A stretch of DNA of 64,000 nucleotides from Saccostrea cucullata (lineage: Eukaryota). The position numbers and the translations under genes were made by a program. This document shows positions 56,301 through 62,800 of the stretch, in pieces. Position 1 is the first letter of the stretch. Each line of letters opens with the position of its first letter. Under the pieces are notes generated by a model. It was given only the letters and a program-made list of their open reading frames with translations. It did no database searches and had not been told where the DNA came from. The DNA is taken from positions 1 through 64,000 of the forward strand of contig NW_026941516.1 of NCBI RefSeq assembly GCF_032062105.1, written 5' to 3'.

Positions 56301-59300
56301 TGCTTAATCAGTTGAATGGCTCAATTTTTTCACCATTCCTAGATCTTATGCTATCATGCTGTTCTCTCATGGCATTTTTTGGATTTCTCCGTTGTGGAGA
56401 ATTTACTGTAAAGAGTAGTAATGTAGACAATGATTTTCTTTGTATGAAAGATGTAATAGAGAAAGGTGATAAAATGTCTTATACTTTGTATTTGAAATGT
56501 TCAAAAACTGACCCTTTTCGTCAAGGTGTCTTTATTCATGTTTTTAACAATGATCACACCAAACCTGTAGATATTATGCATGAATACTGCCAGCTACGTA
56601 TTTCACAAGGCGCTCAACCAAACTCGCCTCTGTTTGTTGATGCTGATGGTTCACCTTTGTCGAGAAATCAATTTATATCATATTTAAGACATGTAATAGC
56701 TGTGTTAGGTTATGATGACACTAAATATTGTGGGCATTCATTTAGAATAGGTGCTGCTACTTCTGCGGCAGAAGCCGGTATAGAAGACCATCTTATACAA
56801 ACTCTAGGACGCTGGTCATCAAATTGTTATGTTAGGTACATAAGAACTGATGAGAAAGTACTTAGAGAAGCACAAAAGAAAATGTGCTGTGGAAACAGAA
56901 CTTAGTTTGTACAAATTTTCCATTTGTTAGATCGGTATTGTTTTTTCTAAAATAATGTACAGTGTATTGGTTTTGGCGTCTATTTCTTTGGGGGCTCTCA
57001 CTCTTTTTAACAATTTTAAAACTCGTTCATTTTGGACATTAAAATTCCCATGTATTTGGAATTTTTCTACCCCCAAATTCAAATAAGCAAAATGCTCATT
57101 GAAGCTTTATTATTAAAGTTTACAAATTGTGTACTCAACACACAAAATACCTAATATATTTTTACCATGCTTTAAGTTCACATTTAAGTAACCTGCCGGG
57201 CTCCCCCCAGGTACTTTAACTACTTAAATTATTAGCAACCTGCTGGGCTCCCCCCAGGTTGATTGAAATACCTACTGTATTAGTACCATGCTTTTAGTTC
57301 ACATTTAGTAACCTGCCGGGCTCCCCCCAGGTACTTATATTATTATCAACCTGCTGGGCTCCCCCCAGGTTGATTGACTACAACCAAAAAAAAATATTGC
57401 TTTGTTCGGTATCGATGATTGCCTGCTGGGCTCCCCCCAGGTAATTTTAATTTGGAACCTGCTGGGCTCTCCCCAGGTTCTGGGATAACAACTAATAACC
57501 TGCTGGGCTCCCCCCAGGTTATATTTTAATCTATGTATTTAATTCAGAGAGCAGCCCCCAAGATGCCAAAGTTTTTTGTAATGTATTTTTATAACAGTAT
57601 TTGTTTTTAATTTATTTGTACTCAACCTTGTGTTGTACATAGTGTTTTTTGATTTATTATGTGATGTGTTCATTTTAATAAATCTAAACCTTTACCTTTT
57701 GTCATGTTGTGTATAAAATGTAAATTTATGTAATTTTTGTTTATACACAACTATGTTACTTAACTGTTGACGTAATCAGTAGACATGTGCCTGGGATGTT
57801 TATAAACAAAACCACGTGATCGATGGAACCAATCAGAAGTGCGGAAAGGGACGCTATCTCAGTCTGTCTTTTGTAATCGAAGTGTTTAGTATTGTACCTT
57901 TAAATTGGTCATCCCACCCACCACCCCTTCATCTCCTGTTTTATAAGTACTAACATATATCTGTTTGACATTGCATCTTTAAAAATTGTAAAATTGTAAC
58001 ATGTATCTCATTATTGTTATGATGTACATCATTATCTTTGTTTTAATATTGTACTTCAATCACTGTTTATATCATTAACTGTTTTAAAGGGGCTGCTTTA
58101 TTTGAATTATTTTAATATTAATAAATTTGGACATTAAATTATAGGACATTAAAATTCCCATGTATATTAAAATTCCCATGTATTTGGAATTTTTCTACCC
58201 CCAAATTCAAATAAGCAAAATGCTCATTGAAGCTTTATTATTAAAGTTTACAAATTGTGTACTCAACACACAAAATACCTAATATATTTTTACCATGCTT
58301 TAAGTTCACATTTAAGTAACCTGCCGGGCTCCCCCCAGGTACTTTAACTACTTAAATTATTAGCAACCTGCTGGGCTCCCCCCAGGTTGATTGAAATACC
58401 TACTGTATTAGTACCATGCTTTTAGTTCACATTTAGTAACCTGCCGGGCTCCCCCCAGGTACTTATATTATTATCAACCTGCTGGGCTCCCCCCAGGTTG
58501 ATTGACTACAACCAAAAAAAATATTGCTTTGTTCGGTATCGATGATTGCCTGCTGGGCTCCCCCCAGGTAATTTTAATTTGGAACCTGCTGGGCTCTCCC
58601 CAGGTTCTGGGATAACAACTAATAACCTGCTGGGCTCCCCCCAGGTTATATTTTAATCTATGTATTTCGGACATTAAAATTCCCATGTATTTGGAATTTT
58701 TCTACCCCCAAATTCAAATAAGCAAAATGCTCATTGAAGCTTTATTATTAAAGTTTACAAATTGTGTACTCAACACACAAAATACCTAATATATTTTTAC
58801 CATGCTTTAAGTTCACATTTAAGTAACCTGCCGGGCTCCCCCCAGGTACTTTAACTACTTAAATTATTAGCAACCTGCTGGGCTCCCCCCAGGTTGATTG
58901 AAATACCTACTGTATTAGTACCATGCTTTTAGTTCACATTTAGTAACCTGCCGGGCTCCCCCCAGGTACTTATATTATTATCAACCTGCTGGGCTCCCAA
59001 GAATTTCACAGAAATTTCTATTTTTAGAAACCATGGCAACACTGTTTATCAAAATCAAAAACCGATGCACAGAATTATGTATCTTAGTGTAGTCTACTTG
59101 TGTGCCACATTATGTTGAAATCAGAACAAAACTGGTGGACGAGTAGTATTTAAAATAAAATTTCACAGAAATTTCTAGTTTTAGTAACCATGGCATCACC
59201 GTTCATCGAAATCAAAAACCAATGCACAGAATTATGTATCTTAGTGTAGTCTACTTGTGTGCCAAGTTATATTGAAATCGGACCAAAACTGTAAGAGGAG

Positions 59301-59785
59301 TAGCATTTTGAAAGAAGTTCACAGAAATTTCTATTTTTAGTAACCATGGCAACACCGTTCATCGAAATCAAAAACCGATGCACAGAATTATGTATCTTAG
59401 TGTAGTCTACTTGTGTGCCAAGTTATATTGAAATCGGACCAAAACTGTAAGAGGAGTAGCATTTTGAAAGAAGTTCACAGAATTTTCTATTTTTAATAAC
59501 CATGGCAACACCATACATCAAAATCAAAAACCGATGCACAGAATTATGTATCTTAGTGTAGTCTACTTGTGTACCAAGTTATATTGAAATCGGACCAAAA
59601 TTGTAAGAGGAGTAGCATTTTGAAAGAAGTTCACAGAAATTTCTAGTTTTAGTAACCATGGCAACACCGTTCATCGAAATCAAAAACCGATGCACAGAAT
59701 TATGTATCTTAGTGTAGTCTACTTGTGTGCCAAGTTATATTGAAATCGGACCAAAACTCTAATAGGAGTAGCATTTTGAAAAATT

Positions 59786-59818
<33 letters not shown>

Positions 59819-62800
59819 CGGACGGACGCCGGACGCATTACTATCGCATAAGCTCTTCTGGTCTCTGACCAGTAGAGCTAAAAATGGGGTCTTTAAAGAT
59901 CGCACATTGTGCGCACGGACCAGTCTGTTGTTAAGTTAATTTCATTATAATTTCAAACATTTGGATTTGGGCTTTACACATGTTCATGGACACACACTAC
60001 ATTTTTTTAAGGTGCAAAGCACTTCCAAGTATTAGCAATAATCTTTAAGTATAGTTCATAATTTACTTAATTATTAACATTCAGAACAATGCACAAAAAT
60101 TTACGAGCTTCATCAAAATAAACAGGTTGTATACACAAACTGCACGACCAAGTCTGATGCTGCACTAGATTTATAACAATGTCATGAATAGAAATCTCAA
60201 TTTTCAGTACATTACATGTATTTTTAAATTCTTGTTTTGTCTTCAAAGAAGAAGGTATGGTTTTAGCTTTATTGCGCCCTAAAAATGTAATGACATAAAA
60301 AAGTTTTGAAACTGGCTTAAATATTAGTTTAATAAATGACTCTGATAAATCAGGAAAGAATATGGCAAGAAGGTTTACCATTCTGCAAATATGACGTCAT
60401 TAATGTGAAGCATTTCTCTATTTTCAACAGAAAAAGCCTCAAATTGGCACATTTCAAGGGAGATTTTCCTTTAGAAAACAGTGTCCACAGCCGTTGCCCA
60501 CATTAATTTTTTGATATTTTGTGCAAAATTCAATAACAAATCACATATCTCAAGATCTTTGTGGGCGATGCCTGTGGACAATGTTATCTAAAAGAAAATT
60601 TCATTAAAATTTGGTGTCTTCTGCAACTTTTTAAGAAAATACGGGAAAATGCACATGTTCTTGACGTCATAATTAGCATTTAAAAACACATGTGAGAAAA
60701 ATCACTTGTATGTTTTTTCTGCATTGATTTTCTATTATTCAAAAAGCATGAGTTTTCAACTTTTACACCAGTTTCATTTTTTTTTTAGAAAATCACAGGG
60801 CAAAACTTGTATGGAAACCATACCTTCTTCTTTGTACACACCGTTGTAAAATCATATATACAAATCTCAATTCAATACACTAAATTTATTTCAATCATTT
60901 TGAGATGTTTTAACAAATATTTTGTCTCTTACATCATTTCAACTGAATTAAAACTTATTTTTTTGAAAGGACGCTGCCCGTGCCGAAGGCCGGCGTCGCT
61001 TTTCTTGTCTAGTTTTGACAAATATTTGTTAGGGTTTTTGTTAAGTATTTGTACTGCCTATATAGTAAGCGATACTTAAGATATCATAAAATGATTATAG
61101 CCTCTTTATTTGTGGTATATAAAATTTTTATCAATTTTTGACCTGTTTTATATGGAAAACAATCATTTAATTCCAAACACTTTACATCAGAGTTAATGTC
61201 AATTTAACCTTGGTCTGTGAGCACTGTCTGCGATCTTTCAAGACCCCTATTTTTACAGAAATATTACGTTCCATCAATAAAAATTAAATCATTTTGACTT
61301 GTTTTTTCATAAGAAATATTTTGATATACAATAGATGCAAATAGATACATTTATCTTAACAAATATGTCACTGTCCACGAACTTTTTGGACAGCCCTGGT
61401 ATGTGATAAAAAGTAAGGGTTATATAGTGTATACATAATTAGAGAGAGAGAGTGAGAGAGAGAGAGATTTTTTTGAACATTACAATATTTACATCCACTG
61501 AATATTTTCTTCTTTATTTCTTAAGAAAACCCATTGCGTTCATCACTGCATGAACTACATTAGGCATATCACCTGTACGGATTTCTTGATCAGTGGCCGT
61601 TTCATCAATGAAACGTACAAAGACGTTCGCATCATAAATACAATAATTAATATTTTTAATCCTACTTAAAATGACAATTCAAACAGATATAAATATAAAC
61701 AATAAAATGTCTTTGAATGAACAGTCGCAGCTATTGCAGAAAAAATTTTCATAACCCGCGGGTTATGTATTTTTTCTGCAACAGCTGCTTCCGTTCATTC
61801 CAGTAATAACAAACAAAGAAAGCATTTTATTGTTTAAATAATTCTGCAACAAAAAAATATTTCATGTACCTTCAGTTGGATCAGGTGGTGTGAAATCTGT
61901 GAGGATTGATTCAGAAGATAAAATATTCTCAAATCCAAGAGAATTTTTCACATGAATATTGAAATAGTACATTGTGTTGTGCTGAAGGTCCAAATCATTG
62001 TATTCAAATTTTCTGTTTGAACCAACTCCTAATTTTTCATAGTGCATGTAATGTCCATCCTAAAAAAAGATAAAAAAAAATTAAAGGTATCTTAGATAAC
62101 ATCATCACAAAAAAATGTCAAAAATTGTTACAAAAATGTTGTTGTACAATCTTGAATCTACAAAATTAAATGAAGTTATTTTTAGAAAATGGTACATGAT
62201 TTTCATTTTAGCACATTCATGCTAACTCCTTGCAAAATATAGGAACTGAACTGTTTACCGGGGTATTTGCCTGGGAGTCTCAAATAGTGAAAATTGAAGA
62301 ATACCTTTGATATCTTAAAATTATATCCTTCTATTGCCTCTAAGAGCTCACAATGGCCACTGCCAAAGTCATAGTTGAAGCTCAGACACTTAGTGTCATG
62401 CATCTTGTTGCAGTGAGTGGCACATTCACCTGGAGTGGAAAGACTGTCATATTCTTTAAAGAGAATATGCCTTCCTACAAGTTTACCACTTCTTCCATCA
62501 CTAAAAAGTGTCATAACTTTTAGGTTTAAGGGATCATAACCTGAAATTAAAAGAATGGGTACATAATATAATAAAATATACAAGAATATTAAAAATTGTA
62601 AACTTATTTTTCTTTTTACTCACAAGACAATTCCCCCCTCATAAATGTTCTTAAAGCACATACCCACATCATAGTTGACCGTATTTGCTGCAATGCTGGT
62701 TTGATTCCACCTGACAATCTGCTCTCCCCAGATGTCCCTGCCGTACCCCACAGCCACCAGAACCTGGGTTATGGGGGAGTCCTCATACACAGTGACTAGT

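What the first reader, a model, noticed from the sequence alone, without database searches (positions are those of the whole stretch)
57190..58998. CRISPR-looking array of 24-bp palindromes in the Ngaro terminal repeats
Seen: a near-invariant GC-rich motif AACCTG-CYGGGCTCCCCC-CAGGTT repeated seven times per B repeat with diverged AT-rich spacers. It can form two alternative hairpins (AACCTG/CAGGTT or CTGGG/CCCAG), and each copy contains a pyrimidine run plus CAG|GT. Motif conservation against spacer drift suggests selection. Inference: iterated binding sites for YR, Gag or a host factor (insulator/enhancer), or RNA hairpins for packaging or strand transfer. The element's right end breaks in the middle of one motif.
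Basis: partly seen in the sequence, partly recalled or inferred. Interest (0 to 1): 0.7.

Follow-up and report, generated by a model that had tools for sequence, protein, structure and literature searches.

The report
Ngaro retrotransposon tail carries hairpin array
A jumping gene of the Ngaro type, likely from an oyster, carries seven near-identical short palindromes in its end repeat, as several of its relatives do with other sequences; they likely fold as stem-loops on the element's own RNA that its packaging protein would bind, and they are not a CRISPR array.

Summary
The array is real: 17 whole copies of a 20-nt core (7 + 7 + 3, plus one cut copy), none expected by chance. It lies in the B repeats of a young Ngaro tyrosine-recombinase retrotransposon. 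It is not CRISPR-like: two spacer pairs are duplicates and there is no cas gene. The mid-motif break is likely a later deletion, since the element sits inside a 156-bp-repeat element whose unit is cut too. Each motif's own flanks extend its stem with different letters (best of 120 permutations). A relative with 43% recombinase identity keeps the motif with unalignable spacers, so the neutral-minisatellite refutation is not met. Six of seven assessable families of this clade carry a post-recombinase array with family-specific motifs, enclosed by a conserved long-range helix. A separate conserved inverted repeat at the B/A junction is the likely recombinase site. Best reading: RNA stem-loops serving as a multivalent signal, likely for the zinc-finger ORF1 (Gag) protein. 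Binding is untested, RNA-versus-DNA evidence is weak, and one relative's array has no hairpins. I found no description in six literature searches.

The parts
52668..52863 (+). A1 split direct repeat (left end of the element)
   Evidence: 196 nt, 100% identical to 57717-57912
52991..54286 (+). ORF1, Gag-like: weak N-terminal SAP/Ish1-like helix, CX2CX4HX4C knuckle, CCCH-type finger; this copy seems frameshifted near 54225
   Evidence: (Ish1 E 0.007, SAP E 0.14, both below cut-off)
54231..55931 (+). ORF2, reverse transcriptase with an RNase H-like C-terminus; no methyltransferase hit
   Evidence: PF00078 E 8e-11; RNase H read from the sequence, no Pfam hit
55832..56905 (+). ORF3, tyrosine recombinase
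   Evidence: PF00589 E 4e-7; 86% identical to a Saccostrea echinata protein
56971..56999 (+). arm alpha: 5' strand of the predicted helix that encloses the array
   Evidence: MFE fold; duplex -34 kcal/mol, counterpart in 6 relatives
57031..57716 (+). B1 repeat; the end at 57716 is inferred from relatives in which B1 abuts A2
57190..57520 (+). array 1: seven hairpin-capable motifs with AT-rich spacers
57540..57571 (+). arm gamma: complementary to both alpha and beta
57707..57750 (.). inverted repeat spanning the B1/A2 junction; likely recombinase crossover region (junction at about 57716/57717)
   Evidence: conserved with compensatory changes in 5 of 5 aligned families
57717..57912 (+). A2 repeat
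58089..58109 (+). arm beta: second partner of gamma, just before AATAAA (58120-58125) and the start of B2
   Evidence: duplex -29 kcal/mol; counterpart in L082 and L084; preferred over alpha in the full-length ensemble
58126..58667 (+). B2 with short duplications at its start and array 2 (58318-58647); lacks the last about 176 nt of B
58668..58998 (+). tandem partial third B copy with 3 whole motifs and 1 cut motif
58999..59883 (+). right part of the host element: five 156-bp repeats, ACAG/ACGG microsatellite, terminal palindrome (Pearl/HINE-like); not part of the Ngaro
   Evidence: its 5' part is the left flank up to 52667 (loose ends)

Best explanation
The motifs are an iterated cis signal in the B repeat of a Ngaro retrotransposon that likely folds as seven small stem-loops in the 3' untranslated part of the element's RNA and likely gives multivalent, family-specific binding sites for the element's own zinc-finger ORF1 (Gag-like) protein, which would select the RNA for packaging and reverse transcription. 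Shown: the position after the YR stop, the near-invariant core, stems extended by covarying flanks, growth partly by block duplication, and arrays at the same place in related families. Predicted: the stem-loops sit in a loop closed by helix alpha-gamma, and gamma switches to beta once the RNA 3' end is made, bringing that end next to the B1 tail. Inferred from the general Ngaro model (recalled): the RNA ends early in B2, so only the B1 array is on the RNA and the B2 array is its by-product. Untested: the folding in vivo, the binding partner and any role in transposition.
For: Own flanks fold better than permuted flanks: p=0.001 for 7 units, best of 120 permutations in each of three sets of 5 non-duplicate units. 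On 8 units (6 window, 2 L023) 89.6% of cells pair, 5 of 12 pairs show two-sided changes, and 1 of 500 shuffles reaches the covariation score. L023 (43% YR identity over 207 aa, another subclade) holds the motif family; it is the only 1 of 128 loci matching the pattern and none of its spacers aligned. In other copies from public runs, three T.G positions of stem 6 read as C-G and a G.A mismatch of stem 2 as T-A. A GC-rich 12-mer occurs 3 or more times within 700 nt after YR in 19 of 94 loci against 0 of 94 coding controls. Alpha-gamma helix: own partner better than permuted in 7 families, p=0.0004; beta-gamma own partner best and sense better than antisense in 3 of 3. ORF1 has CCHC and CCCH fingers; a CCHC box in YR-element Gag is linked to RNA packaging in PMC6681497 (passage read). 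DIRS-1 cDNA is antisense (PMC7192593, passage read), so plus-strand pairing points to RNA.
Against: Strand evidence is weak: sense folds better than antisense in only 2 of 7 window units; pooled G.T versus A.C is 25 versus 13 in 8 families (p=0.07), and cross-paired window flanks show the same G.T excess (38 versus 2), so composition explains it. The own-flank test passed in only 3 of 14 testable families (window, L082, L007). L084 has six copies of a motif with no hairpin. Most loci (75 of 94) show no array by this test, so it is not a universal need. RNA depth was 2-3x per orientation on B1, mostly from a diverged subfamily and without usable strand or ends. No binding data.
Confidence: 0.5

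Rival explanations
1. The motifs are iterated double-stranded DNA sites for a host factor or for ORF1's SAP-like domain (enhancer or insulator next to the A2 promoter, as in LTR U3 repeats).
For: B1 lies directly upstream of A2, which has CCAAT-, CRE- and E-box-like words (read; motif names recalled). L084's array is a sequence motif without stems. The core, including the loop, is kept by sequence. A resemblance of CCTGCTG to Zic-type sites is recalled, not tested.
Against: It does not explain flanks that stay complementary with different letters, T.G to C-G changes or the enclosing helix. Close families use unrelated motifs. All copies face one way.
Confidence: 0.17
2. The array is a neutral by-product: hairpins make reverse transcriptase slip, which duplicates and homogenises units and perfects palindromes by template switching.
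For: Units 1-2 and 3-4 are a block duplication; B2 has short duplications at its start and a tandem third copy. Motifs turn over between families about 65% identical in YR.
Against: The same core persists in L023 across saturating distance while spacers do not align. Template switching gives exact complements, not kept wobble pairs. Among the rows shown, all listed indels in the array lie in spacers and the one listed core change restores the consensus (only 40 of 1303 substitution rows and 12 of 142 indel rows were shown).
Confidence: 0.16
3. The hairpins act on the single-stranded minus cDNA, as pause or landing sites for the strand transfer that rebuilds B2, or as folded sites for YR.
For: DIRS-1 has single-stranded cDNA intermediates (PMC7192593, passages read). 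With DNA energies the antisense strand folds as well as or better than sense in 6 of 7 units.
Against: Wobble positions become C.A mismatches on the minus strand (unit 5 loses stability). The junction where the element inserts has its own conserved inverted repeat. The mid-motif break is explained by a deletion.
Confidence: 0.14
4. The array is a CRISPR-like or integron-like system that stores foreign spacers with the help of YR.
For: Conserved palindromes with variable spacers beside a tyrosine recombinase.
Against: Spacers vary from 15 to 52 nt, two pairs are duplicates, and spacer edges are part of the stems. B has no phage match at E<=1 and no Rfam match at gathering level. Of 7 frames of 150 aa or more, three are the element's; one other was scanned with no Pfam hit and three were not scanned.
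Confidence: 0.03

Closest known systems
Ngaro superfamily of tyrosine-recombinase retrotransposons (A1-[gag, RT/RH, YR]-B1A2-B2; PMC8547959, PMC3783388, PMC4157794, bioRxiv 10.1101/2021.08.05.455354; passages read)
   Same: [quoted passage not shown]
   Different: B is long (about 686 nt against 152 nt in Xenopus DIRS-53) and holds a hairpin array inside a conserved long-range helix. Term searches for hairpin and palindrom* found nothing in those four papers. B2 of this copy is rearranged.
Retroviral and LTR-retrotransposon packaging signals bound by CCHC nucleocapsid; MS2-type iterated operators (general knowledge, recalled)
   Same: Clustered short stem-loops with conserved loops; a partner protein with a CX2CX4HX4C knuckle is encoded in cis.
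   Different: Here the units are near-identical repeats in the 3' UTR and terminal repeat, not distinct loops in the 5' leader; binding is untested.
DIRS-1 of Dictyostelium (PMC7192593, passages read)
   Same: Same order of elements; complementary terminal sequences rebuild the ends; primer unknown; a 3' hairpin was suggested as primer.
   Different: DIRS-1 has inverted repeats and an ICR; no iterated array appeared in the passages seen.
CRISPR arrays and integron attC arrays (recalled)
   Same: Palindromic repeat and spacer look; a tyrosine recombinase next door, as in integrons.
   Different: No constant spacer length, no foreign spacers or cassettes, no cas gene; growth by duplication.

Membership tests
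Ngaro retrotransposon | gag, RT/RNase H and tyrosine recombinase ORFs | tested here: met
   RNase H read from sequence, no Pfam hit
Ngaro retrotransposon | A1-ORFs-B1A2-B2 split direct repeats, internal pair after YR | tested here: met
   B2 lacks its 3' part and is followed by a partial third copy
Ngaro retrotransposon | no methyltransferase domain (unlike DIRS and PAT) | tested here: met
   no MT hit; ORF2 is 566 aa and overlaps YR
Ngaro retrotransposon | RT groups with reference Ngaro elements | not tested
   the tree used YR and had no named reference elements
CRISPR array | unique spacers of near-constant length | tested here: not met
   15-52 nt, two pairs homologous
CRISPR array | cas genes nearby and spacers of foreign origin | tested here: not met
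   (phage collection only; rest of the genome not held)
YR crossover (att) site | element ends fall at the motif | tested here: not met
   left end falls at the B/A junction inverted repeat; the right break also removes part of the host repeat unit
Neutral minisatellite | motif and spacer diverge alike; head-to-tail period | tested here: not met
   no TRF call on the array; core kept in L023, spacers not
Packaging-type RNA signal | covarying stems on the sense strand | tested here: inconclusive
   covariation met; strand preference weak
Packaging-type RNA signal | bound by Gag and needed for RNA selection | not testable with these tools
   needs binding and transposition assays
Known Rfam RNA or ribozyme | match to a covariance model | tested here: not met
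   two weak matches (E 2.2 and 5.2), neither on a motif

The most novel reading that the evidence does not exclude
Many Ngaro retrotransposons carry an undescribed 3' RNA module: a fast-turning-over array of family-specific stem-loops that acts as an identity code read by the element's own Gag, held in a conserved helix that switches partners when the RNA 3' end is complete and so couples packaging to priming and strand transfer; a separate fold-back at the B/A junction is the recombinase substrate. This would supply the missing cis signals of the DIRS order.
Probability: 0.3. Interest if true: 0.72.

Novelty: new variant of a known kind. Interest (0 to 1): 0.5.

Why it matters
The cis signals for RNA selection and priming in DIRS-order retrotransposons are largely unknown: PMC7192593 states that no primer has been determined for DIRS-1, and the word 'packag' does not occur in it. 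This locus and its relatives name short candidate elements (array, alpha/gamma/beta switch, junction inverted repeat) with natural compensatory variants, so each can be tested directly. It also warns that repeat-spacer arrays beside eukaryotic tyrosine recombinases are a recurring Ngaro feature and no sign of a CRISPR-like system.

Tried and rejected
No whole genome was held, so copy number and a copy-level rate test of motif against spacer could not be done. Rfam at E<=10 found nothing on the motifs. The exact motif had 0 matches in viral contigs; the YR search there gave one distant integrase. B1 had no phage match. Look-ups of earlier findings by B sequence, YR sequence and genome place were empty, as was one by words. 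The G.T-versus-A.C count was dropped as strand evidence because the cross-paired control shows the same bias. Whole-unit folding energies did not favour the sense strand in the window. Laid reads gave no transcript ends, no strand and no joint for the B2-to-B3 tandem junction; contigs cannot show absence, so an assembly artefact there is not excluded. A link between ORF1 finger sequence and motif type could not be judged from 6 ORF1 sequences; L002 and L082 share a loop but are not closer in ORF1 (54%) than L001 and L082 (64%, on a shorter alignment). No transcription-factor library was available. No structure or complex prediction was run, since RNA cannot be the partner.

Full report
Observation. 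The 20-nt core CCTGCYGGGCTCYCCCCAGG occurs 17 times in the window, all on the + strand, with none expected from 100 shuffles. The copies form arrays of 7, 7 and 3, and an 18th is cut at 58998. The arrays are copies of one array (99.7-99.8% identity). The spacers are 15-52 nt and AT-rich; units 1-2 and 3-4 form a block duplication, while most other spacer pairs are unrelated. Tandem Repeats Finder does not call the array.

Context. Three overlapping ORFs encode a Gag-like protein with CCHC and CCCH fingers, a reverse transcriptase and a tyrosine recombinase. A1 (52668-52863) equals A2 (57717-57912). This is the A1-ORFs-B1A2-B2 layout of Ngaro elements (PMC8547959, PMC3783388, PMC4157794; passages read). 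The closest named YR is from Saccostrea echinata at 86% identity, so the host is likely an oyster. In relatives with full layouts B1 ends where A2 begins, so B1 likely runs from 57031 to 57716, and B2 of this copy has lost about 176 nt to a tandem restart at 58668.

The right-hand break. In other genomic copies the left flank continues at 52665 straight into the 156-bp unit found right of the array (loose ends in X21, X1 and X7). The Ngaro therefore inserted into a Pearl/HINE-like element (class described in PMC7492417, passages read; family not matched by sequence). The right junction resumes about 90 nt further into that unit than the insertion point. A later deletion, or an assembly error, removed both the Ngaro end and part of the host unit. 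The mid-motif break is thus no evidence of cutting at the motif.

Structure within the array. Each motif's flanks extend its stem with different letters. Own flanks beat permuted flanks (p=0.001 for 7 units; best of 120 in three sets of 5 non-duplicate units). On 8 aligned units (window units 1, 2, 4, 5, 6, 7 and two from L023; unit 3 left out as a duplicate) 89.6% of cells pair, 5 of 12 pairs have two-sided changes and 1 of 500 shuffles reaches the covariation score; the structure was drawn from these sequences, so the slid controls are not independent. Laid reads and contigs of other copies show three T.G positions of stem 6 as C-G, a G.A mismatch of stem 2 as T-A, and the one deviant loop base of unit 6 as consensus; listed indels lie in spacers; ten RNA reads and one contig carry a different spacer before a motif. 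Only 40 of 1303 substitution rows and 12 of 142 indel rows were shown.

Relatives. Scans gave 79 metagenome loci (best 80 of 377 confirmed, from 14 of 64 parts of the collection) and 48 genome loci (those labelled as bacterial MAGs are likely host contigs, an inference). A GC-rich 12-mer occurs three or more times in the first 700 nt after YR in 19 of 94 loci, window included, and in 0 of 94 coding controls. That control is coding DNA, the loci are not independent, and some hits include B1/B2 duplicates. In the 25-row YR clade holding the window (96/97 support), families with at least 400 nt after YR are the window, L001, L002, L003, L005, L023, L082 and L084; leaving the window aside, 6 of 7 have an array (L005 does not; L004, L081, L083 and L085 were too short or duplicates). 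Motifs differ between families 63-68% identical in YR. Yet L023, in another subclade at 43% identity, keeps CCTGCTGGG...CAGGT: it is the only 1 of 128 loci matching the pattern, which was written after seeing it, and the best of 97 in an edit-distance scan, by one edit (4 against 5), with two such copies; none of its spacers aligns with the window's.

The scaffold. The region 56940-57720 folds far better than shuffles (z -7, 20 shuffles), with the array inside a helix between alpha (56971-56999) and gamma (57540-57571). Six relatives have both arms; own partners beat permuted ones (p=0.0004, anchors chosen by eye, families related, and some cross pairs are stronger than own pairs). A second arm, beta (58089-58109), just before B2, also pairs with gamma in the window, L082 and L084, each best with its own partner and better on the sense strand. 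In the full-length ensemble gamma pairs with beta and alpha pairs locally; six of seven motifs keep much of their own stem in that state. Separately, an inverted repeat spanning the B/A junction is conserved in 5 of 5 aligned families, 5 of 17 pairs with two-sided changes. The element's left end falls within it, so it is the likely recombinase site.

Results against the RNA reading. Sense folds better than antisense in 2 of 7 window units. The wobble count is explained by composition. Of 15 families picked by eye could be tested and only 3 passed the own-flank test; L084's motif has no hairpin. RNA reads covered B1 at 2-3x per orientation, mostly from a diverged subfamily, with no usable strand or ends.

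Mechanism. I judge it most likely (0.5) that the array is read as RNA stem-loops, probably by ORF1, whose CCHC box is the type linked to RNA packaging (PMC6681497, passage read). DIRS-1 cDNA is the antisense strand (PMC7192593, passages read), which makes plus-strand pairing an RNA feature. Rivals are DNA sites for a host factor (0.17), a neutral product of slippage (0.16), minus-cDNA hairpins (0.14) and a CRISPR- or integron-like system (0.03).

Literature. Six searches (listings and abstract starts) and term look-ups in eight papers (passages only, no supplements) showed no description of such arrays or of the enclosing helix. The original Ngaro papers of Goodwin and Poulter, and Repbase entries, were not read and may mention them. 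Unchecked notes of this scan report similar arrays in sea-urchin and fungal Ngaro elements, with divided readings; they are leads and not support.

Verdict. A real, probably selected, recurring feature of Ngaro B repeats; a new variant of a known kind of element; interest 0.5.

Noticed in passing
window 57707-57750; L082:6645-6694, L084:3478-3527, L001:703-752, L002:657-706: Conserved inverted repeat with compensatory changes spanning the B/A junction; the element's left end falls in its left arm. Likely the YR recombination site, possibly used as a folded single strand.
   Followed up: partly
window 56971-56999, 57070-57077, 57540-57571, 58089-58109: Mutually exclusive long-range pairings (alpha-gamma, beta-gamma, alpha-local) conserved in related families; candidate RNA switch near the 3' end.
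   Followed up: partly
window about 54225: ORF1 of this copy seems frameshifted relative to other copies and lacks the last zinc knuckle seen in five relatives, so this copy may not be autonomous.
   Followed up: partly
window 52379-52667 and 58999-59883: The Ngaro is nested in a Pearl/HINE-like element with 156-bp repeats; other 161-173-bp repeat arrays of similar look lie at 5663, 8955, 11516, 22197 and 31641.
   Followed up: partly
L075 and L105 (after YR); L002 and L082 (after YR): Two more pairs of families share a loop motif while their stems differ.
   Followed up: partly
L081-L085, L104, L108, L113 and other loci: Ngaro-like retrotransposons lie in contigs filed under bacterial MAGs; likely animal host contamination.
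   Followed up: no
window 6674-7741: Open frame of 355 codons with no Pfam hit.
   Followed up: no
L084, about 1440-1500 nt after YR: B2 starts with a short internal duplication, as B2 of the window does at 58126-58183; may mark slippage where B2 is rebuilt.
   Followed up: no
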